From the UHGV virus genome UHGV-0138922: a DNA stretch of 36,008 bases. One strand, written 5' to 3'. The stretch comes from a virus. Below are positions 50-35,386 of the stretch, piece by piece. The position numbers were made by a program, and so were the translations under genes. Position 1 is the stretch's first letter; each line of letters opens with the position of its first letter. The notes beneath the pieces were generated by a model. That model was not told where the DNA came from. It worked only from the letters and a program-made list of their open reading frames with translations, and ran no database searches.

Positions 50-391
50 TTAAAGGTCTGCAAATTCCGCAATCGGTGCCATACCGCGAGATTCAAGGAA
101 GTTCAGTAAGCGGCGCGGAGAAACATTCAAAATGCGCTCTGGCGGAAAATCTACCGCGTCGAGGATTTTAAGACACTCTTCAAATTCACCCATGGTAAAC
201 GCGGTGTGAGAATCCGAGCCTAATGCCACCCAACCTCCAGCGTCACGTACCGCTGCGGCTACCGCACGACAATTGTCTTCACTTCCCTTACGTGAGTGTA
301 AAAAAGAGGAATTATTGATTTCCAGCGCCACCTGATGTTTCGCGGCTGCTTCAGCAACGGCTTTAACATCTATTTCATATTTCGGATTGCC
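50..391 (-). pseudogene. ycdX: 3' fragment of PHP-family phosphoesterase gene (YcdX-like), truncated at the prophage junction
   Basis: ORF-track protein from [29 protein letters not shown] through the GSDSH motif to ...PIAEFADL looks like the C-terminal ~115 aa of a PHP-domain protein; the upstream 55 codons of the 170-aa ORF are AT-rich and antisense to gene 431-700; GC content drops sharply near 392. Confidence 0.6.
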
Positions 392-430
392 TAATATCAT
401 GTACCCACAATAACACGAGAGGATACAACG

Positions 431-700
431 ATGAACATTACCAAAGCAATCCATAACTATGCTCGCCGCCGTGGAATCGAACTTCAACTCGAAGATGAGC
501 AGGTTAGATTCTGGGAGACTGAACAAGATTGTGAATGGATGTTCAGCTATTCGATTGCTCAATGTGGTTGCTTGTTCTGGAAAGGTAATGTGTATCTTCC
601 CCGCGATATTAAAGAAGAACTTCCGGCGATGATTGGCACCGATAAGAAGTTAAAGGAAGTCTTAGATTTTATCCACAAAGAGTTTATTAGCAAGAAGTAA
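431..700 (+). CDS. Hypothetical 89-aa Cys-containing protein at prophage end
   Basis: ORF with GAGAGGA ribosome-binding site about 8 nt upstream of ATG 431; followed by a hairpin terminator. Confidence 0.55.
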
Positions 701-1657: not shown

Positions 1658-1677
1658 ACGCGGTAGGGGCTTTTTTG
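1641..1677 (+). terminator. Rho-independent terminator
   Basis: GCCCCTA...TAGGGGC stem followed by TTTTTTGTTT. Confidence 0.6.
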
Positions 1678-1689
1678 TTTGGAAATGGT

Positions 1690-3369
1690 ATGAAAACTAA
1701 ACTGTATTCGTATATTCGCTTCTCGTCTATGCGTCAGAATGATGGTTCGAGTTATGAACGACAAATCAGGATGGCTAGAGAGATTGCGGCAAAGTATGAC
1801 CTTGAACTGGTAAATGATTATCAGGATCTGGGTGTATCTGCGTTTAAGGGTGCTAACTCTAAAACAGGGGCGCTATCTCGTTTCCTTGATGCAATTGGTA
1901 GATCCGTTCCTGTTGGTAGCTGGCTATTCATCGAAAACTTGGACCGTTTATCCCGTGCCGATATTGTCAGTGCGCAGGAGTTATTCCTTTCAATCATCCG
2001 TAGGGGAATAACCATTGTTACTGGCATGGATAACAAGATCTACTCGCTGGATACTGTTACCGCTAATCCGATGGACCTGATGTTCTCCATCCTTTTATTC
2101 ATCCGTGGTAATGAGGAAAGCCAGACTAAGCGCAATCGTACTAACTCAAGCGCACTGATTAAGATTAAAGCCCATCAAGAAAATCCCCAGAATCCGGCAG
2201 TGGCAATCGAGGAAGTTGGAAAGAATATGTGGTGGACGGATACCACTTCCGGTTATGTGCTGCCTCATCCGGTGTACTTCCCTGTTGTTCAGGAGATTGT
2301 GGAATTACGGAAGAATGGACGTTCAACCGCCGAAATACTGGATCACCTTAACGAGACTTATACACCGCCACCAGCGGTTAGCAACAAGAAGCATTCAAAA
2401 TGGTCACGGGCAATGGTTGAAAGGTTGTTTCATACCCGCGCTTTGATTGGTATCAAGGAGGTCTCTGTAGATGGCGTTAACTATGAGTTAAAGGATTATT
2501 ACCCTCGTGTTATTGATGACCCTACGTTCTATCACCTTAAGAAAAATATTGGTGCTAGAGCATGGAACTTCGGAGACAAGGAAGAAGTTAAACCGATCCC
2601 CCTGCTTAGTGGTATTGGCCTATTGAAATGTGATCATTGCGGTTGCGCTATGGTTAAAGTGAAGGGAACGAACAAACGTTCTGACCAGTATCGTTATACA
2701 TGTGATGCGACCCGTTCACGTAGACTTGATTGCGAGCATCCAAACTGGAGTTTTCGAGGTGATCAATTAGAGAAAGCTGTATTGCAATTGCTGGCTGATA
2801 AAATCTGGATTGCTGAGGACAAGGCTAATCCGGTTCCGGCGTTGAAAGTACAGGTTGATGAAATATCACGCAAGATTGATAACCTGATTGCCCTTTCTGC
2901 TATGACAGGAGCAACGAAGGAGCTAGCCGATCAGATTACTACCCTCAATAGCGAGCGTGAAACACTCTACAATCAGATCAAGATGGCAGAAGAGGAAATG
3001 TATTCTGTTGACTCTCAAGGCTGGGAGAAGCTCGCAGAATTTGATTTAGAAGATGTTTACAACGAGGAACGACTAAAGGTCCGGTTTAAGATTAAGCAAG
3101 CTCTAAAGCGGATCGGGTGTAGCAGGATTGACAGAAACAAAAACTTGTTTGTACTGGAATACATCGATGGAAAGACCCAGAGAGTTGTAATAGAAAATTC
3201 AAGAGGAACGAGGAAAGGACAAATCTTTGTCGATTTGAAAACTATCAATGATAGGCAGATTCTGGAGAGTAACGGGCTTGTTCTGCATCCATGTTTAGAC
3301 ATGCTGACAGATAAGAACTGGAAACCAGAAGAGGAAATACCAGGTCCATTACAGGAATTTGGAATTTAA
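1690..3369 (+). CDS. Large serine recombinase (phage integrase)
   Basis: N-terminal resolvase-type catalytic motif YSYIRFSSMRQ; long recombinase domain; Cys-rich zinc-ribbon (CDHCGC...YRYTCD...C) and C-terminal coiled coil; ATG 1690 is the likely start (track start 1675 is TTG). Confidence 0.88.
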   Translation: MKTKLYSYIRFSSMRQNDGSSYERQIRMAREIAAKYDLELVNDYQDLGVSAFKGANSKTGALSRFLDAIGRSVPVGSWLFIENLDRLSRADIVSAQELFLSIIRRGITIVTGMDNKIYSLDTVTANPMDLMFSILLFIRGNEESQTKRNRTNSSALIKIKAHQENPQNPAVAIEEVGKNMWWTDTTSGYVLPHPVYFPVVQEIVELRKNGRSTAEILDHLNETYTPPPAVSNKKHSKWSRAMVERLFHTRALIGIKEVSVDGVNYELKDYYPRVIDDPTFYHLKKNIGARAWNFGDKEEVKPIPLLSGIGLLKCDHCGCAMVKVKGTNKRSDQYRYTCDATRSRRLDCEHPNWSFRGDQLEKAVLQLLADKIWIAEDKANPVPALKVQVDEISRKIDNLIALSAMTGATKELADQITTLNSERETLYNQIKMAEEEMYSVDSQGWEKLAEFDLEDVYNEERLKVRFKIKQALKRIGCSRIDRNKNLFVLEYIDGKTQRVVIENSRGTRKGQIFVDLKTINDRQILESNGLVLHPCLDMLTDKNWKPEEEIPGPLQEFGI

Positions 3370-3441: not shown

Positions 3442-4617
3442 TTAGAGAGCCTCTAAGAGAGTATTAAAGTATTCATCCATTAAATCAGGACTGTCGTCAT
3501 CAATACAGAAAAATTCCGGTTTATTGATGCCGTAGAAGTGAGTATGTAGCTTGAATGTATCGTCATCAAATACATCTTTCGGGGATACCCACATATTAGC
3601 CTCGTCCGGTTGATTGGTTAGGTAGTCATAAACCAGTTGCTGTAAGTGTGGTAACTCATCAATAGTCAGAGTTTCCGACCATCCATCCTTGAAATCTTTG
3701 TAGGGTGCTGCATGAGTCTTGAAGCGTTGTTTTACTTCATGCTCTAAATCAACGGCTTTCCAACCATCCTCAAACTCATGAGTAAAGATTAATCTGTGAG
3801 TGAAGTTGCTCTTTCTGGTTTGCTCTCTCATTCGTTCTTCTGGTTTCCGGGTAGTGATTCCAAATTTAATAAATTTGTCATCTAATAATTGAATGTAGAA
3901 ACTAGCCTTACCCTGATAAGTCCGGTTAGACAGTTGCACCAGTTGGTCTTTAATGCAAAGCGGACAAGTGAAAGAATCAGCACATCTTAAATGAGATTCC
4001 CATTCGTGGTTATGTGTCTTGCAATAGGTTTTAAATTTAACATCCTTTAGGTGTGGGGTGTTTATGATGAATCCTTTGAAGGTGTAAGGCGTACTCTCGC
4101 AACGTGCATTGATGATTGTCTCTTTGTCCTTAATAACTTCATCAAAAGTCTTGCCACTTCTTACCCGTTGGGATTTTTCAGCCATACAGATTTTGCAATC
4201 AAAATCGAAATCATCTTTGAGTGCATGTAATAGAGATGGCGTCATGATTTGATTGTGTTCAGGGCACAAAACACGGGCTTTCGTTCTATTTCGCCCTTTC
4301 CATTCTCCTTGCCATCCGAGGAATTTCTTTCCCTTCTCATTACAACGAGATTCCATTTTCAACCATACAGCCTTTTCAGTCTGGAATAACTCACCCCCGT
4401 TAGTATCTTCCAGTTTGCGTAATTTGTAGTCCTTATATTCTTGTGTATCTAAATTGTAGATTCGAAAGTAAGTGTGATTACCCTTCCACGGTAGGATAAA
4501 TCCACCAAATACGAAAGCAGGTTCCAGTTTAGCGATGATTCGTTGTTGGTACTCTTCCGGCGATAAACCGCGAGTTTTCTTAACAAAAGGAATTTCGGCA
4601 GCGTAAGCAAGTTTCAT
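3442..4617 (-). CDS. Zn-ribbon + GIY-YIG (T5orf172-like) nuclease-domain protein, 391 aa
   Basis: GIY-YIG-like motifs SFYIQ...KFGITTR...E; several CxxC pairs; start moved to the internal ATG at 4617, which has an AGAGGAAA ribosome-binding site (track start 4728 lacks one). Confidence 0.6.
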   Translation of the reverse strand: MKLAYAAEIPFVKKTRGLSPEEYQQRIIAKLEPAFVFGGFILPWKGNHTYFRIYNLDTQEYKDYKLRKLEDTNGGELFQTEKAVWLKMESRCNEKGKKFLGWQGEWKGRNRTKARVLCPEHNQIMTPSLLHALKDDFDFDCKICMAEKSQRVRSGKTFDEVIKDKETIINARCESTPYTFKGFIINTPHLKDVKFKTYCKTHNHEWESHLRCADSFTCPLCIKDQLVQLSNRTYQGKASFYIQLLDDKFIKFGITTRKPEERMREQTRKSNFTHRLIFTHEFEDGWKAVDLEHEVKQRFKTHAAPYKDFKDGWSETLTIDELPHLQQLVYDYLTNQPDEANMWVSPKDVFDDDTFKLHTHFYGINKPEFFCIDDDSPDLMDEYFNTLLEAL

Positions 4618-4676
4618 AGTAGTTTCCTCTAAAATAATAAGCTCACTACTATTTATTAGAGAAAATTGTCTTACTA

Positions 4677-4704
4677 TTGCATTCTCTATCTGAATGTGTA
4701 TAAT
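4677..4704 (+). promoter_or_regulatory. Sigma70-like promoter (TTGCAT-N16-TATAAT)
   Basis: Hexamers read directly from sequence, about 65 nt upstream of gene 4772. Confidence 0.45.
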
Positions 4705-4771
4705 ACGCGACCCTAAATCCCAAACCAACCATATTGAGGTTATGCCTATAAGTTAAAAAAGTGAGGTCTAT

Positions 4772-5341
4772 ATGATTCCAGTAATGGCTAAAGATATTGT
4801 TTTTACTCCTAAATCCTCCCGTGCTGTAACTCCATCGGCATTAGAACAACGCATTCTGACTCACATCAAAGAGAAGGACTTACCGTTAGTCTTTCATGGC
4901 TTTCTGGGTGAGTTTAAAGGGCTTCATTCAAGAATTGCTCTTACATGTACCCGATGCGGCAATAGAGCCGACAAATCAGCTACCAACCTGCTTAATGAAG
5001 GTAAACGCTGTGCATGTCTCAAAAGTGATTACTTTCAATATAAAGCGGGTGTGCCTTATCTCTATGTAATGAAATCAGGGGATATTGGTAAATTTGGTGT
5101 TACAAAGTCAATCATCAAGCGACGCATTAATCTGGGTGTACGCAATCCCGGTCATAACTTTGATATTGTCTTTGCTGGTGAAATGCCATCAATGAAACAT
5201 GCTTTAGCCACTGAAAGAGCAATAAAGAGATTACTGGATGTGGGTATAGGCGGGATTGAATACGGCAAAACTGAAACATTCCACTACTGCAATAAATCAC
5301 TAAACAATATAAAGAATATTGCAAGTGTGGAGTGGAACTAA
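4772..5341 (+). CDS. Zn-ribbon + GIY-YIG nuclease-like protein (189 aa), paralog of 3442-4617
   Basis: CxxC...CxC then PYLYVMKSGDIGKFGVTKS...R...E (GIY-YIG spacing); collinear similarity to the 391-aa protein. Confidence 0.65.
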   Translation: MIPVMAKDIVFTPKSSRAVTPSALEQRILTHIKEKDLPLVFHGFLGEFKGLHSRIALTCTRCGNRADKSATNLLNEGKRCACLKSDYFQYKAGVPYLYVMKSGDIGKFGVTKSIIKRRINLGVRNPGHNFDIVFAGEMPSMKHALATERAIKRLLDVGIGGIEYGKTETFHYCNKSLNNIKNIASVEWN

Positions 5342-6831
5342 TGCAAGATATTAAAATTCATTTTCAAGATTACAGTTTCGTTAAGGTTGATTGCTCTCCT
5401 TCTATCGGAATGGAATTAAGAGATTATTTCTCGTTTGAGGTTGAAGGGGCTAGATTTAGCCCCCGTTACAAGTATTCCGGCTGGGATGGAAAGATAAGAC
5501 TGTTTACGCATGAAAATACCTTGCCAATCGGATTATTGAAAACATTAGGTATCTTCGCTAAAAACATGGGCTATAGCGTATGGGTAGACCCCAGATTGCT
5601 TGAGAAGGAAGATGTAACCAAAGAATCAATTGATTCATGGATTGACTCTTTAGAAGTGTATTCCGGTAGCAATAAAATCAATCCTTACTGGTATCAAAGG
5701 GAGGCAGTATTTCAGGGTATCCATAATCGCCGTAGAATGCTGGTTCTTCCTACCAGTGCCGGAAAGTCATTGATTGCTTGTATGCTGTCTCGTTGGTACT
5801 TAGAGAACTACACCGGAAAGATTCTAATCATTGTCCCGACTACATCGCTGGTGGTTCAAATGAGGGATGATTTTGTCGATTATAGGCTATTCCCTTATGA
5901 AGCAATCCATACAATGATGAGTGGTAGCGGGAAACATCCGGGAGACAGGTTAATCACTGTTTCAACCTGGCAATCAGCTTGCAAGATGCCTCCTGAATGG
6001 TTCCGACAATATGGAATGTTGATAGTTGATGAATCACATCGCGCTAGTGCAAAGAATATCACCAATATCATCAACGGAATGAATCACTGTCAATTCAAGA
6101 TTGGTATGACTGGTTCCCCGAAAGAATCAAAGTGCCATCTCATGCAGTATGTCGGGTTGTTCGGTGATATTCAGAAGATAGTAGCAATCAAGCAATTGAT
6201 GGATGACGGACAAGTTACCCAGCTTAAAATTAATGCTCTCTTCCTTAAGTACAAAGATGAAGAATGTAAAGCAATGCGGGGCAAAGATTATCAGGAAGAG
6301 ATTAAATTCATCAATGCTCATAAGGTAAGGAATAAACTGGCTTGTAATTTGGCCTTAAAACTCGCCAGGAAGCAAGAAAACGTATTTTTGATGTTCCGGT
6401 ACTCTAAGCATGGAAAAATGCTTTATAATGCATTACAGCGCGTTTACGATAAGGTTTATTACGTTTCCAGTGAGATTACCACCGCCGAACGCGATGCCTT
6501 AAAGAAAATGGCTGAAAATGAGAAAGGATTGATTGTAGTTGCTAGCTATGGTGTTTTCTCTACTGGCGTTTCAATTAAGAATCTTCATCATGTTATTTTT
6601 GGTCATCCGGTGAAAGAATCGACCATTGTCCGGCAATCAATAGGACGTGCTCTTAGGAAACATGGTAGTAAGGCAATTGCTGTTGTATGGGATTTGATAG
6701 ATGTGATTTGTTCGAAAGACAAGAAAGGAAAATATACACGCAAGAATTATGCTTTAACTCATGGCCTCCAGAGAATCAATACTTACATATCAGATCGCTT
6801 CGAATATGCCACGAAAACAATCGAGATTTAA
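5341..6831 (+). CDS. uvsW: T4 UvsW-like SF2 (DExH) DNA helicase
   Basis: Walker A LPTSAGKS, motif II LIVDESH, motif III MTGSP, motif VI IGRALRKHG; N-terminal region MQDIKIHFQDYSFVKVDC...WDGKIRLF resembles the UvsW N-terminus as I recall it; ATG overlaps the upstream stop (TAATG); track alternative start is GTG 5332. Confidence 0.82.
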   Translation: MQDIKIHFQDYSFVKVDCSPSIGMELRDYFSFEVEGARFSPRYKYSGWDGKIRLFTHENTLPIGLLKTLGIFAKNMGYSVWVDPRLLEKEDVTKESIDSWIDSLEVYSGSNKINPYWYQREAVFQGIHNRRRMLVLPTSAGKSLIACMLSRWYLENYTGKILIIVPTTSLVVQMRDDFVDYRLFPYEAIHTMMSGSGKHPGDRLITVSTWQSACKMPPEWFRQYGMLIVDESHRASAKNITNIINGMNHCQFKIGMTGSPKESKCHLMQYVGLFGDIQKIVAIKQLMDDGQVTQLKINALFLKYKDEECKAMRGKDYQEEIKFINAHKVRNKLACNLALKLARKQENVFLMFRYSKHGKMLYNALQRVYDKVYYVSSEITTAERDALKKMAENEKGLIVVASYGVFSTGVSIKNLHHVIFGHPVKESTIVRQSIGRALRKHGSKAIAVVWDLIDVICSKDKKGKYTRKNYALTHGLQRINTYISDRFEYATKTIEI

Positions 6832-6836
6832 TAAAT

Positions 6837-6854
6837 AGGGGCTTTAATGCCCCT
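6837..6854 (+). terminator. Hairpin (AGGGGC-tttaat-GCCCCT), weak terminator or attenuator
   Basis: Stem-loop immediately after the helicase stop, followed by a T-rich tract. Confidence 0.35.
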
Positions 6855-6876
6855 TTATTCTACGGAGATTAAAAAA

Positions 6877-7128
6877 ATGATTAGCTTTAAACGTTTTTTG
6901 GTTGAGGCCGCGATCGACGGTTTCATGAGTAAGATTTATTCTTGTAATACTATCGAGGGATTAAATGAACTTGAGGCATATTATGAGAAGCGCAAGAAAG
7001 AAACAGAATTGAAACCTGCTGATGATATTTCGATCCGTGATGCCATCGCCGGACGACGCAAGCAACTGGAAGCGGAGAACGAGCCGGAAGACGATTTTTC
7101 TATCATCAATTTGTGCCAGATAAAATAA
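6877..7128 (+). CDS. Small acidic protein (83 aa)
   Basis: GGAG about 10 nt upstream of ATG 6877 (track start 6847 lacks a ribosome-binding site); followed by a strong terminator. Confidence 0.5.
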   Translation: MISFKRFLVEAAIDGFMSKIYSCNTIEGLNELEAYYEKRKKETELKPADDISIRDAIAGRRKQLEAENEPEDDFSIINLCQIK

Positions 7129-22762: not shown

Positions 22763-23185
22763 TTAAAAACGCGCTAGATAAGAAAATTTAAGACTAAGTG
22801 TCCCAACGATACCCCCATCACTAGAATCATCGTCATAATCGGTATTAGAAGCGACTGGAGTTATATCTGAAATGGAGAAGCCCAAATCTTTAAAACGTGG
22901 GTTATCTGGCTGAATCTGGATTATCTGGCAAATACCCTCATGAATTTTCGTTTCATGAATCTGAGAATATAATTGCATTTCGATAACGCATTCAGCTTGC
23001 ATTGCATTACCACCACGGACCCTAGTGTAAGTCTCATTCATTCCGGTAATCCAACACACCACGTCATCGCTAAAACCAGTTTGAGTTTGTTCTACGTTTA
23101 AAGCCAGACCTAGATCTTGTTCGATAATATCCTGTAAAGCACGTTTAATCTTAAGACGTGGCATATTATTAACGGTAGCGAGCAT
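22763..23185 (-). CDS. Head-tail joining / neck protein (putative)
   Basis: Position between capsid and tail genes; AGGGGGTG ribosome-binding site supports the internal ATG near 23185. Confidence 0.4.
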   Translation of the reverse strand: MLATVNNMPRLKIKRALQDIIEQDLGLALNVEQTQTGFSDDVVCWITGMNETYTRVRGGNAMQAECVIEMQLYSQIHETKIHEGICQIIQIQPDNPRFKDLGFSISDITPVASNTDYDDDSSDGGIVGTLSLKFSYLARF

Positions 23186-27747: not shown

Positions 27748-29655
27748 TTAGAACGATGTTACCCAGCTACGGCCTCTATTTGGGCGTCTGGCGATGTTTT
27801 GACGTTGTGGTCGTGTGATTGGCTTAGTTTCTTCGATTTGCTCGTCAGATTGCGTTTTAGGAGCTTCTACGGATTCTTCGACAACACGGTTTAAGCTGTC
27901 TTTCATTGCAATGAGTTTATCCCATGACATTTTTGAAAGAACGTAGCGAGAAGCAGCATAGCTATAAACCAGACAGTCGAGAGCCTCGTTTCGGGTACTA
28001 CCTGGATTTTTCACCCAACGAACACCAGTAGTAGTACGCTTGATGGATTCACTCAAAAGCTGATCGAGATAATCATCAGGAACGGTTTCTGATATTTCTA
28101 GGCCGATATGAGGATTGTCTTTCAGGTTTCTAACCAGCATTTCACGAACAGCGGATTTACCAACGTTAACACCCAACATAAGCAATTCATGACCACCTGT
28201 GCGGGTAGGTTTAACCGGAATCACTGGAGCATTACCAGATGAACTACCTTTGATAGCGTGTAGGTTCTTCCACTTACCGCAAATACGGTATCCGGCTTGA
28301 GTGAATCGACCGTTTGATGTATCGAGGAAGCTGGCGAGCATTGGTACACGTTCACCATTAACGTTATAGAATTTGGTTTTCTTGAAGTTAACCAGGCGAT
28401 CCCATACAGGTGATTCATATCGTTCACAGTTATGATCGTAAAAGCTGCGGTGATCCAGAATGTAAACCTTATCTTTCGCTACACCTAAGATGGTAGATTC
28501 TGCGCGATCCAATTGCTGGTCAATTCCTGAGCACAAGAAAATTACGTCATCAGGGATATTCTCGATAGAAACATCTGTTTTGAGTTGTTCCAGTTCATTG
28601 GCTTCTACGGCAGTGTCCTGATCATCGTATACCTTACCTAACACGGTGTTATAAAATGATTGTAAATCAAAGGATTGCCACGCATGACTAAAATCAACCA
28701 CACAAGCGCGAATCGTGCTAAAAGGTGAATACAGACGACTGATCCAGAATCCTGCTACTTCACTTTCACGGGTTGCTCTCCACTCGCCTTGCGCTACTGC
28801 CCTGATTCGTTCCCCTTCGGTCCATGCGTTCTTACAGTGGGGGCAAATATAACGAGCGGTATCAGGATCAGGTAAGTTCTTACCATCAATGTTACGCCAT
28901 TCAAATTGAACGTTTTCCCACTCGATCACCTGGTGTTCCCCGCAATGCGGACACGGAACAAAAAACATACGCATGTCGCTTGATAACCATTGCTGGTTAA
29001 TGCTTCCGAGCTTACTGGTCGGGGTACTGGATACGACTAATCGACCTTCATCCCCAAAGGTAGTTAAACGGTTAGCAGCCAGTGCCACCGGATCACCTTC
29101 TTCTGAGGCTGTGGCAGCATCGATTTCGTCAAGTAATCCAACCTTTGCGGTCTTACCACGTAGGGTTGATGGACTGGTAAGCGATACCATGTACAGGAAG
29201 TGATTCGTTTTTAGCTGTAGCTGGTTATTGTTGTTAACCGCATTGCGATCATTCTTGTCTGTAACCACGTCTTTTAATGCATCACATGCTTCGATAGACG
29301 GTCGGATCTTACCAGCGAGATATTGAGACATTTCTTTAGCGGTTGATTGTCCGATAATCATATTGCATGGATCGTTAGCCATCTGGTTAAACAGGATACC
29401 GTTTAGGATGGTAGTTTTTCCGATCTGCGCACTGGTCATCAGAACATACTTTTTCTTGTTCTCAAGGAAAGGAGCATCAATCATGCCTTTCTGGAATGAC
29501 AGCAATTTAACTTTATCCCCAGCTTGAGGACCATCTACCAGCACCATATTCGCTTCGCACCATTCCGATGGAAGGAGTTTAGGCGGTGGCGTAATATATT
29601 TTGCGGCATTTCTAAGAATTCTTTTTAGTTTTGTTTTGTTCGAAATTAGTTTCAT
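27748..29655 (-). CDS. Terminase large subunit (lambda gpA family)
   Basis: Walker A-like TSAQIGKTT, conserved CPHCG zinc-ribbon motif, 635 aa; GAGGGT ribosome-binding site. Confidence 0.88.
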
Positions 29656-29742: not shown

Positions 29743-30345
29743 ATGCTAATTAACCAACAACAAAGGGATGAATTAGATTTAGCCTTATCTTGTACCGATC
29801 ATGAATATCGTTTGCCAGTCAAGCATAAGCATTTAAAAACCGACTACACAACATCCGGTTTTAGCCGTGAGGAAGCGAAAGAGATTTTAATAGAGTTTTA
29901 CCGCGATAATGGTTATACAGACGTTCACAACTTCTTTAAGAAGCATAGAACATCACATACAGAGTTTCGGAGAGTCCGAGATTGGTTTGATTTTGATATC
30001 AAGCGGTTTTACAGGATTGATGACGGTCCGGTCTATCGGTTGCAATGGAAGCCGATCCGAGAAGTGTTGAAACAGAAGAGATTGAATCACGCTGTTACAC
30101 GCTATCGTAACGAGGCATTCAAGAAAGGCTATGGTGATACAAGGGAATTGTTTGTAGAACTCGCTAACGTGCGTTATAGCCACTATTACAACGATCCTAA
30201 AGGATTCTTCGAAGTGCTTCGCAAGGTTGATATTAGTCGGGGTACATACTATTCACGGTTGAAGAAGTACGGGATTAAGGCAGAGTTCTTCATGACCGTT
30301 GACGACTCACCGATGTTCAAGATAAAATGTAAGTCCTCTAAATAA
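29743..30345 (+). CDS. DNA-binding protein with C-terminal HTH-like domain (200 aa); possible small terminase or regulator
   Basis: AAGGGGGG ribosome-binding site; C-terminal ISRGTYYSRLKKYGI motif shared with two small paralogs. Confidence 0.55.
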   Translation: MLINQQQRDELDLALSCTDHEYRLPVKHKHLKTDYTTSGFSREEAKEILIEFYRDNGYTDVHNFFKKHRTSHTEFRRVRDWFDFDIKRFYRIDDGPVYRLQWKPIREVLKQKRLNHAVTRYRNEAFKKGYGDTRELFVELANVRYSHYYNDPKGFFEVLRKVDISRGTYYSRLKKYGIKAEFFMTVDDSPMFKIKCKSSK

Positions 30346-30380
30346 TATTGAGAATTCACTATTGTTTGGAGGAAACTACT

Positions 30381-30605
30381 ATGACTACTAAAGCTACTCG
30401 CGGACGTCCTTGCCGTTTTGATCGTGAACAACTGGCAGCGATTGTAAAAGCGTACTATCAAGCACCGAAAGGTAAAGCTGAAAAAGAGCAAGTATTGAGT
30501 GAACACGGTATTTCAATCGCTCAATTCTACAAATCACTCCATAAAGTTGATTTGAAATTCTTTGTTCAGGTTGACGGTGAAATGGTAGAAGCAACAGGAA
30601 TTTGA
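30381..30605 (+). CDS. Small HTH-like protein (74 aa), paralog family member
   Basis: MTTKATRGRPCRFDREQLAAIVKAYY...EHGISIAQFYKSLHKV; GGAGG ribosome-binding site upstream of ATG 30381. Confidence 0.55.
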   Translation: MTTKATRGRPCRFDREQLAAIVKAYYQAPKGKAEKEQVLSEHGISIAQFYKSLHKVDLKFFVQVDGEMVEATGI

Positions 30606-30613
30606 TTCTCTAG

Positions 30614-30640
30614 GCCAATCCTTCGGGGTTGGCTTTTTTT
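30614..30640 (+). terminator. Rho-independent terminator (UUCG loop)
   Basis: GCCAATCC-ttcg-GGGTTGGC followed by TTTTTTT. Confidence 0.65.
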
Positions 30641-30654
30641 ATACCTACAGATAC

Positions 30655-30679
30655 AAAAAAGCCCCTGAAATTCAGGGGC
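30655..30679 (-). terminator. Rho-independent terminator for the Rha-like operon
   Basis: GCCCCTG...CAGGGGC palindrome; on the minus strand followed by a U-run (plus-strand A-run 30655-30660). Confidence 0.6.
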
Positions 30680-30687
30680 AAAAATTA

Positions 30688-32530: not shown

Positions 32531-32570
32531 AGTTGGTAATCCTCTAAAAGAAAGTGAATCAAACAAATTA

Positions 32571-32846
32571 CACTAGTATTTATAACGAGAATTTTTTATC
32601 TATTTGGAAGTGATTGGTATTCAGTCTGGCTAAAGCCATCCTTCATGTACTAGAACAAGAATTATACAAAACAAATTTTCTTCTATAATAATATTATATA
32701 ATAGTTCTTCGTTTTGATTAAATGATCATCAAACCAGTATTGACGCTCTCCAGAGCGTCTGCGAAGCAATCTATTACCTTCTAGTATTATCAAAGTGATT
32801 CCAACTACCTTTCTAGTAACCAGTTAGTAATCATCTAGTATTAAAT
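32571..32846. promoter_or_regulatory. Cluster of five CTAG-containing sites ([A/T]CTAGTA[A/T]), candidate operators
   Basis: ACTAGTAT 32571, TACTAGAA ~32650, TCTAGTATTA 32781, TCTAGTAAC 32812, TCTAGTATTA 32835; the first overlaps a candidate -10 for gene 32530. Confidence 0.4.
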
Positions 32847-32869
32847 CCCTTTCTAAGAAAATCCTTTCA

Positions 32870-33000
32870 AAAGTGAGTGAACGCCGTAGGCGTGAACGTG
32901 AGCGAAGCGAACTATCCAATCCCTTTCGAATCCTGCTTGCAGGTCTTAGAAGGTGTTGGTGGGCGCTACGCGCACGGCTACGCCGTATTCTTTTTGTGAG
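32870..33000. other. GC-rich hairpin-dense non-coding element (possible small RNA or recombination/packaging site)
   Basis: ACGCCGTAGGCGT, GCGCTACGCGC and ACGGCTACGCCGT hairpins; direct repeats GTGAGCGAAGCGAAC / GTGAGAGAAAGCGAAC; local GC far above surroundings. Confidence 0.35.
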
Positions 33001-33118
33001 ATCTTTCTTGAACGCTAGTGAGAGAAAGCGAACAAAAAGGAGAACGTTAGTTCGAGTTTTATATTCTATGGTCTGTGTGGTCAAATGCTTTTGCAAATCA
33101 TACACTTACGTGATTGAA

Positions 33119-33240
33119 GTGTAGGGTTAGTGTAGGTGTGTAGGTTTCATAGTGTAGGTTTGGACATGTTCTAGTGTAGGTTTACTGGCTAGTGTAGTGT
33201 AGGCCAATCCCTTTCATGTGTAGGTTTGTAGTGTAGGTTT
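33119..33240 (+). repeat. Iteron array: 8 direct copies of GTGTAGG(TTT)
   Basis: Copies start at 33119, 33130, 33138, 33152, 33174, 33197, 33218, 33231. Confidence 0.8.
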
Positions 33241-33330
33241 TTCATCAAAAATTTTGATAAAAAATTCTTGTATATTATTTAACCAAAAAATCATCAAAAA
33301 TCGCTGTAAGTTAATGATTTAAAAGGAATT
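33241..33330. promoter_or_regulatory. AT-rich tract with ATCAAAAATTTTGAT palindrome and repeated ATCAAAAAT half-sites
   Basis: Perfect 15-bp palindrome at 33244-33258; half-site copies near 33292 and 33395. Confidence 0.55.
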
Positions 33331-33354
33331 GTCAAAAGGTCACCGTGCTATAAT
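33326..33354 (+). promoter_or_regulatory. Promoter with extended -10 (TGcTATAAT)
   Basis: TG at 33346-47, TATAAT at 33349-54; weak -35 GAATTG/TTGTCA. Confidence 0.55.
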
Positions 33355-33434
33355 AGGTTATAAAGGTTGATAATCCTGATCAGCCGTTTTCACACAAAAA
33401 TTTTGATAGTCATTTCTCGCCTAGATCATGGGTA

Positions 33435-33463
33435 TTGACAATAGTCAAGAACTATTTTATACT
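33435..33463 (+). promoter_or_regulatory. Sigma70 promoter (TTGACA-N17-TATACT)
   Basis: Hexamers read directly; about 340 nt leader to gene 33806. Confidence 0.6.
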
Positions 33464-33805
33464 TTTTCTCACTGGTGGGGGTTGAAATTTTCAAAACAAT
33501 CCCCATATAGATGATAGGCAAGAATTTCTCTTGTATAAATACATGCATGAAAATGATTGTTCACTTCTGAAATCTCCAGATTCACTGTTAATTCATACAG
33601 CACTGGTTAGATATACAGTGCTTTTTCGGTTGAATAATGTACGAATTGATTAATTATTAATCTTCTCTTTAGCAATTCGTGCTCCCACTGATCGGATATA
33701 CAGTAGTTTTACAGGGTTTTTCGAAAATCATTTTATAAATAGATATGTCGAGAGCGAAAAGCTCTTTTTAAAGTTTTCATTATTCCACAATTGAGGATTC
33801 TACTT

Positions 33806-33985
33806 ATGGCTAGACCTGTTAAATTTACCCGTGAAATGATTGTTGATATTGCTAAACGCTTTTATGGTGACACTGAACGAGGCGGTGAGAACTTCTTTAA
33901 GAAGGAAGGAATTGATAGAAGCGGATTCTACAAACTAATGAAGAAATACGAGATTCAAGTAAAGATTAACGTTCAAGTTTGTTAA
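33806..33985 (+). CDS. Small HTH-like protein (59 aa), paralog family member
   Basis: MARPVKFTREMIVDIAKRFYGD...EGIDRSGFYKLMKKYEI; GAGGA ribosome-binding site before ATG 33806. Confidence 0.55.
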   Translation: MARPVKFTREMIVDIAKRFYGDTERGGENFFKKEGIDRSGFYKLMKKYEIQVKINVQVC

Positions 33986-34103: not shown

Positions 34104-35129
34104 ATGAAAAATTCTAAGCGCATCACCTTCAACCTGTTCATCAAATCCAATGGCAAACTGAACATTACTGTTATGGAAGGTAAAGCAAGCAAACAAGACA
34201 AATCCTTTGAAGTAGTATCCGGTAAGACTCTGACCGAAATGCGTCAGAATGCTGGCATCAAAGACGGTGCTGAATGGCAGATCACTAACCGTTTCGACAA
34301 ACGTCACGTTAAACCTACACTGGTAGAAGGTGAATCCGTTTATTGCTTCGCTCGTGCTGTTAAAGCTGATGAGACTTACTATCTCGCTGTTGTTAAAACT
34401 GCTTCCGGCTTCCGTGCTGTAATGCATCACAAGAGCAAGCGTAACGAATACGGTGTAGAGACCCAGGAAGTTGCAAAACGCTTCCGTACTGTTGCTACTG
34501 AATCCACTGTAAAGGATGTTTCTGGTACTGTTAACACCGCTAAAGGTGGTTCCTTCTACAACCATGCATTACAGGTTACTTCCTCCTTCTTCTGCAAAAA
34601 AGAAGCACAGAAAGAAGTTGCTCCGGTGGTAGTTGAAGAAGTTAAAGAAGAAGTTGCAGTGGTTGAATCTTCCGAAGTTGAAGCACTGAAAGCTGAACTG
34701 ACAGCAGTTAAAGCGGAAAATGCTTCCCTGAAAGAAGAAAACGCATCTCTGAAAGCAGAACTGGCAGCACAGGAAACCACTTTCGAAGCAGCGGTTGAAG
34801 TTGAAGCAGTTGAAGAAAAATCCATTGATGAAGAACTGGAAGAACTCCTTAACTATCGCTGGGGTAACGGTGAAGTAGAAGAACAGGAAAACGAGAAAGA
34901 AGCTGATCCGGTAGTAGTTCCGGTTGAAGTTGAAGCAGAATCCGCACCAGTTACTAACTTTGAAACCCTGCGCAATAACTTTATGGCTAAATTCAAAACT
35001 ACTTGGGAAGATACCGAAGAAGAACAAGAAGATATTGAAGTAAACGAAGACGAGATCCGAGAAGCACAGATGGCACTGCATGACGCTATCTATGACACTA
35101 ACTACAGCGCCTACGCATACGCAGCTTAA
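34104..35129 (+). CDS. Acidic coiled-coil protein (341 aa) with host-optimised codon usage; function unknown
   Basis: CAGGAG ribosome-binding site; codons dominated by CGT/CTG/GGT/TTC/AAC/GAA unlike neighbouring phage genes; C-terminal half Glu/Ala/Val-rich heptads. Confidence 0.65.
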   Translation: MKNSKRITFNLFIKSNGKLNITVMEGKASKQDKSFEVVSGKTLTEMRQNAGIKDGAEWQITNRFDKRHVKPTLVEGESVYCFARAVKADETYYLAVVKTASGFRAVMHHKSKRNEYGVETQEVAKRFRTVATESTVKDVSGTVNTAKGGSFYNHALQVTSSFFCKKEAQKEVAPVVVEEVKEEVAVVESSEVEALKAELTAVKAENASLKEENASLKAELAAQETTFEAAVEVEAVEEKSIDEELEELLNYRWGNGEVEEQENEKEADPVVVPVEVEAESAPVTNFETLRNNFMAKFKTTWEDTEEEQEDIEVNEDEIREAQMALHDAIYDTNYSAYAYAA

Positions 35130-35143
35130 TCGAGGGTGAATCT

Positions 35144-35386
35144 ATGATGAATCAAAACAAAGAATTTCTGGGTAATCTGATGTTAGAAATTACCAAAATG
35201 AAAGAGCGTATGGCAAAGATGGAATCAGAGATTAAATCACTTAAAGCTGATAACGCCGCATTACGAAAGAGTTTAAAACTGATTGATGAGACTAATGCGG
35301 TTATGATGGATCATGTATTCCCTGAATGGCGAAATGAAACTAAACCTACACAACATAAGAAACCTACACTTCGGATTGTTGCATAA
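35144..35386 (+). CDS. Small leucine-zipper-like protein with basic C-terminus (80 aa)
   Basis: GAGGGTG ribosome-binding site; the C-terminal KPTQHKKPTL is encoded by two inverted iteron copies. Confidence 0.55.
   Translation: MMNQNKEFLGNLMLEITKMKERMAKMESEIKSLKADNAALRKSLKLIDETNAVMMDHVFPEWRNETKPTQHKKPTLRIVA
35342..35369 (-). repeat. Two inverted iteron copies (AAACCTACAC on plus strand)
   Basis: Exact reverse complements of GTGTAGGTTT at ~35342 and ~35360; another at 34311-34320; TAGGTTAGGTTT at ~35421. Confidence 0.7.

What the first reader, a model, noticed from the sequence alone, without database searches (positions are those of the whole stretch)
33119..33330. Eight-copy GTGTAGGTTT iteron array abutting an AT-rich tract and palindromic operators: candidate replication origin or regulatory hub
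Eight direct copies of a 10-bp motif sit within 120 bp at irregular 8-23 bp spacing. They are followed directly by a ~90-bp tract that is >80% AT and contains a perfect 15-bp palindrome ATCAAAAATTTTGAT, and then by two promoters. Iterons next to an AT-rich unwinding element is the classical architecture of iteron-controlled origins. The same tract could instead be a terminase small-subunit recognition site or a transcription-factor array.
Basis: seen in the sequence. Interest (0 to 1): 0.7.

Follow-up and report, generated by a model that had tools for sequence, protein, structure and literature searches.

The report
Swappable repeat array with cognate protein
The eight GTGTAGG repeats are real and are almost certainly the docking sites of an uncharacterised 341-residue protein encoded 0.9 kb downstream in a common E. 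coli prophage; repeats and protein are exchanged together between related prophages, which fits a replication origin with its initiator best but does not prove it.

Summary
Eight same-strand copies of GTGTAGG (five are exact GTGTAGGTTT) lie in 33119-33240. This is the strongest 7-mer cluster in the window: 8 copies against 2-4 in 200 simulations. Three more exact copies lie inverted in the downstream genes. The window is an E. coli prophage inserted in ycdX.

In related prophages the array is present only where the 341-aa and 80-aa proteins (34104-35386) are present too. This held in 11 viral contigs, in Providencia and Logan relatives, and as matching counts (18 and 18) in complete E. coli genomes. 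Other relatives carry, at the same position, a different repeat array together with a diverged homologue of the 341-aa protein. A 46%-identical homologue goes with a shifted motif, GTGCAGGG. The small helix-turn-helix protein p59 and the terminase small subunit do not co-vary, so the packaging-site idea is rejected.

The AT-rich tract is not an obligatory partner. Relatives with the same array lack it, and there the array abuts a sigma-70 promoter. No DnaA or IHF sites were found.

The 341-aa protein has no known family or fold.

My best reading is a new iteron/initiator-type module, with the function inferred. The main rival is a type-specific transcription or immunity control array.

The parts
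33119..33240 (+). Type-A repeat array. Eight GTGTAGG(TTT) units in one orientation plus a partial unit at 33192, with start-to-start spacing of 8-23 bp.
   Evidence: In 9 related sequences the repeat cores vary less than the spacers: 2 of 56 core columns vary against 10 of 63 spacer columns, Fisher p=0.03.
32876..33118 (+). Left part of the type-specific cassette. It is replaced together with the array in other types. It contains a long imperfect hairpin (32889-32985) followed by a T-run (to 32995) on the + strand.
   Evidence: Homology breakpoints at w32876 and w33243 against L020. Fold results. Terminator-like call. Analogous GC-rich hairpin plus T-run in types B, C and D.
34311..34320 (-). 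Exact inverted copy of GTGTAGGTTT inside the p341 gene (codons KPTL).
   Evidence: Invariant in 8 type-A loci. Also present in the Providencia homologue L144, absent in L145, L146 and L135.
35342..35369 (-). Two exact inverted copies (35342-35351 and 35360-35369) at the 3' end of the p80 gene. They encode KPTQ and the KPTL of the conserved C-terminal PTLRIVA.
34104..35129 (+). p341, the inferred array-binding protein. It has a basic N-terminal alpha+beta domain (about residues 1-165, pI 9.7), a coiled coil (about 190-232) and an acidic C-terminal part (pI 4.1) that ends ...AYAYAA.
   Evidence: Co-variation with the array. Domain layout. No family or fold match.
35144..35386 (+). p80, a coiled-coil protein ending KKPTLRIVA. 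It co-varies with the array and corresponds to the C-terminus of the larger 'second proteins' of types C and D.
33241..33330 (.). AT-rich tract (81% A+T) holding the palindrome ATCAAAAATTTTGAT (33244-33258). It is conserved across array types, is not part of the type-specific cassette, and is absent from some relatives.
33346..33463 (+). Rightward promoters of the p59-p341-p80 operon. P1 is an extended -10 promoter (TGcTATAAT, 33346-33354). A second copy of the palindrome lies at 33393-33407. P2 is TTGACA-17-TATACT (33435-33463), with the palindrome TTGACAATAGTCAA over its -35.
   Evidence: The TTGAC-N4-GTCAA palindrome is conserved in L020, L011, L135 and L145.
33470..33805 (+). Untranslated leader of about 335 nt. 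It has a 5' hairpin (33477-33505), a terminator-like hairpin (33601-33625) and the conserved box CTTTAGCAATTCGTGCT (33667-33683).
33806..33985 (+). p59, a small helix-turn-helix protein and first gene of the operon. It does not co-vary with the array.

Best explanation
The array is the set of cognate DNA sites for the basic N-terminal domain of p341. Array and protein (with its partner p80) form one functional module, split into two cassettes (32876-33243 and 34104-35386). The two cassettes are exchanged together among otherwise near-identical E. coli prophages.

Most likely the module is the phage's replicon. p341 would be made from the early rightward operon (P1/P2), bind the direct repeats as an oligomer held by its coiled coil, and use its acidic C-terminal part to bring in replication proteins of the host or phage (for example the UvsW-type helicase), so that replication starts at or beside the array. 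The inverted copies, in the downstream genes here and in the leader of some relatives, would serve feedback control, as control iterons and operator half-sites do in iteron plasmids.

Shown: the array is non-random; array type and p341-family type are strictly linked across an independently assorting spacer; the motif shifts with a diverged DNA-binding domain.

Inferred: that p341 itself binds the repeats, that binding initiates replication, and all partner contacts.
For: 1. The array is present only where p341 and p80 are present. This holds in 8 of 8 loci among L001-L022 and in no locus lacking them. Three further viral contigs, with a TerL of only 52-58% identity, also have both. The array is found in 18 complete E. 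coli genomes and full-length p341+p80 in 18.

2. At the same position other relatives carry different arrays with diverged p341 homologues. Type B has TTTTGCCCCTGAA x7-9 with a 313-318-aa protein. Type C has about 18 CGGGGA units. Type D has CTAATACCGGGGGA x7.

3. Specificity drifts with the protein. Homologues at 67-77% N-domain identity keep GTGTAGG x7-8, including one in Providencia. The 46% homologue has 5x AGTGCAGGG.

4. The 860 bp between the two cassettes (AT tract, promoters, leader, p59) assorts independently of array type. The linkage is therefore held by function, not by proximity.

5. Type B units are spaced 21-22 bp apart, the classical iteron period.

6. The p341 N-domain is basic and its C-part very acidic. 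No other initiator, primase or loader is detectable in the prophage; only a UvsW-like helicase is found.

7. Palindromic operators that would serve ordinary promoter control exist separately and are shared by all array types.

8. p341 lies downstream of strong promoters, one with a palindrome over its -35, and behind a structured leader. That is the position of an early lytic gene rather than a maintenance repressor.

9. L145 and L146 carry an inverted pair of repeat cores in the leader just after P2, like the autoregulatory half-iteron sites of Rep proteins.
Against: There is no experimental or sequence-homology link of p341 to replication. It has no Pfam, PHROG, NCBIfam or PDB-sequence-independent fold match, and only 6 hits among 1.8 billion representative proteins.

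The module never occurs on plasmids in PLSDB.

The repeats in the window are short (7-10 bp) and irregularly spaced, unlike textbook iterons.

The AT-rich tract is not conserved next to the array in relatives and is not the least stable stretch of the window. There are no DnaA boxes or IHF consensus sites in 32567-33806.

The one constant neighbour of all arrays is the promoter of the operon that encodes the cognate protein. A purely transcriptional role would explain that equally well.

The intensity of diversification (five types within one phage lineage) is also typical of immunity regions.
Confidence: 0.45

Rival explanations
1. The array is a type-specific transcription or immunity control site. 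p341 would be a repressor or autoregulator (p80 its modulator) that binds upstream of the early rightward promoters and, by oligomerising and looping to the inverted sites, sets the lysis-lysogeny state. The different array/protein types would be heteroimmunity groups.
For: Every array, of every type, lies directly upstream of the promoter(s) of the operon encoding the cognate protein. In leader variants without the AT tract, the last unit is 13-41 bp from a near-consensus -35.

Inverted core pairs sit in the leader of L145 and L146, and at the promoter of L008.

Cassette-like diversification of a DNA-binding protein with its sites is the pattern of lambdoid and Mu/D108 immunity regions (established knowledge).

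The layout of N-terminal DNA-binding domain, coiled coil and a C-terminus ending in -AA/-LVA recalls the Mu repressor, which is controlled by ClpXP (from memory, not tested).

No CI-like repressor was recognised anywhere in the prophage.
Against: The units are direct repeats, 7-18 per array, and do not overlap the core promoters in the window; the array ends 105 bp before the P1 -10.

Separate palindromes, including one over the -35 of P2, are conserved across all array types and look like the real operators.

p341 is transcribed from the strong promoters it would repress, behind a 335-nt leader with terminator-like hairpins. It is not on a divergent maintenance transcript.

The distance from array to promoter varies from 13 to about 170 bp among relatives, which argues against a fixed activator or repressor geometry.
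Confidence: 0.3
2. The array is a partition-type centromere (parC-like). p341 and p80 would build a nucleoprotein complex on it to segregate or anchor phage DNA.
For: Arrays of short direct repeats upstream of the operon promoter, with autoregulation by the binding protein, are the layout of R1 parC/ParR and of omega-type sites (established knowledge). Type C units show an 11-bp phase.
Against: No ParA/ParM-type NTPase is in the operon or elsewhere. The element integrates through a large serine recombinase into ycdX, and all 53 matches in complete E. coli genomes are chromosomal, none on plasmids.
Confidence: 0.05
3. The array is a packaging recognition site (cosB/pac-like) read by the terminase small subunit.
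For: The large terminase is lambda gpA-type, and lambda cosB contains repeated gpNu1 sites (established knowledge).
Against: The Nu1-like TerS gene lies outside the window next to attR, 2.3 kb beyond p80 and on the other strand. TerS is 94-96% identical between type A and type B phages, and TerL swaps independently of the array.
Confidence: 0.02

Closest known systems
Iteron origins with a cognate initiator (P1 oriR incC-repA-incA, F ori2-repE, pSC101, and lambda ori iterons with O protein)
   Same: Several same-orientation repeats sit next to the gene for a specific binding protein. Further copies lie beyond the gene in the other orientation, as with P1 incA. Inverted core pairs occur near the promoter in some relatives, like Rep autoregulatory sites. 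Initiator and site specificity are exchanged as a unit between related replicons. The type B relatives show a 21-22 bp period.
   Different: The units in the window are only 7-10 bp and irregularly spaced. The protein has no detectable Rep/winged-helix or lambda O homology or fold. No DnaA or IHF sites are present, and the AT-rich partner is not conserved. The array is separated from the protein gene by an independently assorting promoter, leader and p59 segment. Types C and D have two arrays and two proteins.
SaPI/PICI replicons (Rep helicase with an island-specific ori made of short iterons flanking an AT-rich stretch)
   Same: Short (6-8 bp), irregularly spaced iterons, with strict Rep-ori specificity that differs between otherwise related elements (from memory of the published SaPI work).
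   Different: SaPI Rep is a recognisable helicase with a primase partner, and the ori lies just 3' of rep. Here the protein has no NTPase motifs, and the array lies upstream of the operon, in a full-size phage.
Mu/D108 repressor and multi-site operator region
   Same: Many short sites lie between divergent early transcription units. The protein has an N-terminal DNA-binding domain, a leucine-zipper-like coiled coil and a C-terminal tail that could control stability. The cassette differs between sister phages.
   Different: The Mu repressor is transcribed divergently from the early promoter and its sites overlap the promoters. Here the protein lies within the operon downstream of the promoters and the sites lie upstream of them. 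No sequence or fold similarity was detected.
R1 parC/ParR and pSM19035 omega heptad arrays
   Same: An array of short direct repeats lies immediately upstream of the promoter of the operon that encodes the binding protein.
   Different: There is no partition NTPase, the lifestyle is integrative, and the units are neither contiguous nor evenly phased in the window.

Membership tests
Iteron-type replication origin | Three or more direct repeats of one motif in the same orientation, far above chance | tested here: met
   Eight GTGTAGG units in 122 bp against an expected 0.006, and a maximum of 2-4 in 200 simulations.
Iteron-type replication origin | A specific binding protein is encoded next to the repeats, and its specificity changes with the repeats | tested here: met
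   Array type and p341-family type are strictly linked across five types. Binding itself is inferred.
Iteron-type replication origin | Units of about 17-22 bp at a regular spacing of about two helical turns | tested here: not met
   In the window the core is 7-10 bp and the spacings are 11, 8, 14, 22, 23, 21 and 13 bp. The feature is met only in type B relatives, which have 19-21 nt units at 21-22 bp.
Iteron-type replication origin | An adjacent AT-rich DNA-unwinding element that is a constant partner of the repeats | tested here: inconclusive
   The window has an 81% A+T tract at 33241-33330. It is absent beside the same array in L005 and L144, and beside the related array in L135. It ranks only fourth among unstable 60-90 bp stretches.
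Iteron-type replication origin | Host-factor sites (DnaA boxes, IHF) in the origin | tested here: not met
   No TTATCCACA (up to 1 mismatch), TTWTNCACA or WATCAANNNNTTR in 32567-33806.
Iteron-type replication origin | The initiator belongs to a known Rep or lambda O family, or has a winged-helix fold | tested here: not met
   No hit in Pfam, PHROGs or NCBIfam. Foldseek against PDB and BFVD gave no match with E below 0.02, using a model whose N-domain has pLDDT 75-92.
Iteron-type replication origin | The fragment supports autonomous replication when the protein is supplied | not testable with these tools
   This needs cloning into an origin-less vector.
Lambda-type cosB / terminase small-subunit site | The site lies next to cosN and the TerS gene and is matched to the TerS type | tested here: not met
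   TerS lies outside the window by attR. TerS is 94-96% identical across array types A and B.
Partition centromere (parC/ParR type) | Repeat array upstream of an operon that also encodes a ParA/ParM NTPase, on an extrachromosomal replicon | tested here: not met
   No NTPase is present. The element is an integrated prophage and every match is chromosomal.
Repressor-operator immunity region | The sites overlap or bracket the regulated core promoters, and the repressor is made from a separate maintenance transcript | tested here: inconclusive
   The array lies upstream of, and does not overlap, P1 and P2. p341 lies inside the operon driven by them. However, inverted cores occur in the leader or promoter of L145, L146 and L008.

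The most novel reading that the evidence does not exclude
p341-family proteins are a previously unrecognised class of phage replication initiators with a new DNA-binding fold. They read short, loosely spaced iterons and work with a second coiled-coil protein that carries a conserved C-terminal PTLR(I/L)VA peptide. Origin specificity would be carried on two physically separate cassettes that recombine as a pair, giving at least five 'replicon types' within a single very common E. coli prophage lineage.
Probability: 0.35. Interest if true: 0.65.

Novelty: new variant of a known kind. Interest (0 to 1): 0.5.

Why it matters
This prophage lineage is widespread. The type B protein alone is indexed in 2262 blocks of the assembly collection. 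No isolated phage in the phage collection resembles it, and its whole early region consists of proteins with no assigned function.

The array/protein co-variation gives a first, directly testable protein-DNA assignment in that region. It also provides natural specificity swaps (types A, A', B, C and D) that could be used to dissect recognition by a domain with no known fold.

If the module is the replicon, it would add a new initiator family and a set of orthogonal origin/initiator pairs for E. coli. If it is an immunity determinant, it would define heteroimmunity groups of a common prophage.

Tried and rejected
**Searches that found nothing**
- Near-identical DNA in the phage collection: none.
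- tblastn of p341 against phages and plasmids, and of the type C second protein against phages: none.
- Rfam on the whole window: none.
- Pfam, PHROGs, NCBIfam and PADLOC on p341, p80, p59, p156/p169, p110, p200, p85 and p94: only coiled-coil noise.
- HMMER of the p341 N-domain against 1.8 billion representative proteins: 6 hits. Four are family members or fragments and two are low-complexity repeat proteins.
- Literature searches found no paper on this prophage.

**Structure**
- The single-sequence AlphaFold model was useless (pLDDT 45).
- A 12-sequence alignment gave a usable N-domain.
- Foldseek against PDB and BFVD found no fold.

**Ideas rejected**
- TerS recognition site.
- p59 as the cognate binder.
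- The single type B unit in the window at 30671: it is half of a bidirectional terminator stem.
- Conservation of the three inverted sites as independent proof: 40% of all 10-mers in these genes are invariant among the nine sequences.
- The GTGTAGGTTT pairs in other viral contigs, such as giant-virus MAGs: they lack p341 and are unrelated tandem repeats.
- GC skew as an origin marker: it simply follows gene orientation.

Full report
**1. What the window is**

The window is most of a temperate siphovirus-type prophage of Escherichia coli.
- It carries a large serine recombinase (1675-3369).
- It has a UvsW-like helicase with UvsW.1 (5332-7128) and an M15 endolysin.
- Tail, head and portal genes lie on the minus strand, together with a lambda gpA-type large terminase (27748-29655).
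- Bases 50-562 are the C-terminal part of host ycdX.

In E. coli FDAARGOS_1267 (98% identical) the element sits inside ycdX. There it continues 1.4 kb beyond the end of the window, with a Nu1-like small terminase next to attR. No isolated phage in the phage collection is similar.

**2. The observation**

Eight GTGTAGG units, all on the + strand, lie in 33119-33240. Five are exact GTGTAGGTTT, and a ninth partial unit is at 33192.
- Composition predicts 0.006 copies in such a stretch.
- It is the strongest 7-mer cluster in the window, 8 copies against a maximum of 2-4 in 200 simulations.
- The following 90 bp are 81% A+T and contain ATCAAAAATTTTGAT.

Two promoters follow. P2 is near-consensus. 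P1 is best read as an extended -10 promoter.

Three further exact 10-mers lie inverted at 34311, 35342 and 35360, inside the genes for the 341-aa and 80-aa proteins. Only 0.08 exact copies are expected in the whole window on both strands.

**3. Comparative evidence**

Twenty-two viral contigs with a TerL of 77-100% identity were fetched.
- The array is found in exactly the eight that also encode p341 and p80, at 90% identity or more.
- Three further contigs with a different TerL have both as well.
- In complete E. coli genomes the array occurs in 18 genomes and full-length p341+p80 in 18.

Relatives without p341 carry a different array at the same place.

| Type | Repeat unit | Protein(s) |
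|---|---|---|
| B | TTTTGCCCCTGAA x7-9, mostly at 21-22 bp | single 313-318-aa protein |
| C | about 18 CGGGGA units, plus three TGTAGGT units | 337-aa and 333-aa proteins |
| D | CTAATACCGGGGGA x7, plus about twelve TGTACA units | 371-aa and 363-aa proteins |

The first proteins of all types are distant homologues of p341. They share a variable basic N-domain, a coiled coil and an acidic C-part. The second proteins of types C and D end in RPTLRLVA, as p80 ends in KKPTLRIVA.

The motif tracks the protein.
- Homologues with 67-77% N-domain identity, including one in Providencia, keep 7-8 GTGTAGG units.
- A 46% homologue has five AGTGCAGGG units.

Homology breakpoints fall at the edge of the array (w33241-33243) and at w32876. 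Within type A the repeat cores vary less than the spacers.

**4. What does not belong to the module**

The 860 bp between the array and p341 holds the AT tract, promoters, leader and p59. It occurs in at least two unrelated versions that assort independently of array type.
- In L005 (type A), L008 (type B), L135 and L144 the AT tract and its palindrome are absent.
- There the array lies 13 to about 170 bp upstream of a sigma-70 promoter.

Where the AT tract is present, it is conserved in sequence across array types. That points to a protein site rather than a mere easily melted stretch.
- It is only the fourth least stable stretch of the window.
- No DnaA or IHF consensus is present.

TerS does not co-vary with the array. 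Neither do p59, p169, p110 or Rha.

**5. The protein**

The p341 N-domain (about residues 1-165) is modelled with pLDDT 75-92 as an alpha+beta domain with long beta-hairpins. It matches nothing in PDB or BFVD by Foldseek, nor any profile library. Its family has only a handful of members among 1.8 billion representative proteins. The module is absent from plasmids.

**6. Interpretation**

The linkage of two cassettes across an independently assorting spacer, together with the motif drift, makes 'cognate binding sites of p341' a strong inference, which I put at about 0.85.

What the complex does is less certain. I favour a replicon (origin plus initiator), for these reasons:
- The sites are many, direct and one-directional.
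- The commonest type has the classical 21-22 bp iteron period.
- Extra copies lie beyond the genes or as inverted pairs near the promoter, as in iteron plasmids.
- p341 sits in an early-operon position behind strong promoters that carry their own palindromic operators, shared by all types.
- The prophage has no other recognisable initiator.

Against this reading: there is no homology to any initiator, no conserved unwinding element and no host-factor sites. The one invariant neighbour of the arrays is the promoter of their own operon, which a type-specific regulatory or immunity function would explain as well.

Partition and packaging readings fail their defining features.

**7. Verdict**

The array is a real, selected feature. 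It is a new variant of the iteron/cognate-protein theme, carried by an uncharacterised but common E. coli prophage lineage. The protein-site assignment is well supported. The replication function is a hypothesis at roughly even odds against its rivals, and simple experiments can test it.

Noticed in passing
window 50-562 (-), and L134 13451-13855: The window starts inside host ycdX. The prophage is inserted in ycdX of E. coli by a large serine recombinase (1675-3369). Its Nu1-like small terminase and attR lie beyond the window end, so TerS and TerL are 6.5 kb apart in separate transcription units.
   Followed up: partly
window 5332-7128 and 3442-5341: A T4 UvsW-like helicase with its UvsW.1 partner sits in a temperate siphovirus. 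Next to it are two CapR/MUG113 (T5orf172-type) proteins. No primase, loader or polymerase was detected.
   Followed up: partly
window 33244-33258, 33393-33407, 33435-33448: The palindromes ATCAAAAATTTTGAT (two copies) and TTGACAATAGTCAA (over the -35 of P2) are unique to this region and are conserved across all array types that share this leader version. They are the likelier operators for a conserved dimeric regulator. Their half-site resembles a Hin hix half-site (from memory).
   Followed up: partly
window 33806-33985, 30348-30605, 29743-30345: p59, p85 and both halves of p200 are paralogs of about 60 aa. Each has an N-terminal (G)RPxKF arm followed by a helix-turn-helix. None has a family assignment.
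   Followed up: partly
window 33470-33805: The operon has a 335-nt untranslated leader (fold z-score -2.4). It has a 5' hairpin (33477-33505), a terminator-like hairpin (33601-33625) and a box CTTTAGCAATTCGTGCT (33667-33683). The box is kept in every leader version and is duplicated in L005, L008 and L135. This may be an attenuation or antitermination device.
   Followed up: partly
window 32889-32995: A long imperfect hairpin of about 95 nt is followed by a T-run on the + strand. It lies inside the type-specific cassette just left of the array. Analogous GC-rich hairpins with T-runs occur in types B, C and D. It could be a terminator shielding the array, a small RNA, or a priming signal.
   Followed up: partly
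window 32779-32870: Three TCTAGTA units and AAGTGAT-type units lie near the likely leftward promoter of the p156/p169-p110-Rha operon. Similar units are conserved in all types.
   Followed up: no
window 35118-35129 and 35366-35386: p341 ends in ...NYSAYAYAA, and the -AA ending is kept even in 46-67% homologues. p80 and the second proteins of types C and D end in PTLR(I/L)VA. Both endings resemble ssrA-like C-terminal degradation tags or partner-binding tails. This was not tested.
   Followed up: no
L145 2402-2433 and L146 2402-2441: In relatives with 72-77% N-domain identity to p341, an inverted pair CCTACAC-N18-GTGTAGG sits in the leader just downstream of P2. In the window that place is taken by an unrelated hairpin.
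   Followed up: partly
window 30640-30685: A bidirectional terminator lies between p85 and Rha. Its stem (GCCCCTGAA/TTCAGGGGC) is identical to the type B repeat unit.
   Followed up: partly
window 22908-22998: ARAGORN calls a 91-nt tRNA-Glu on the + strand inside a minus-strand structural ORF. It is probably a false positive.
   Followed up: no
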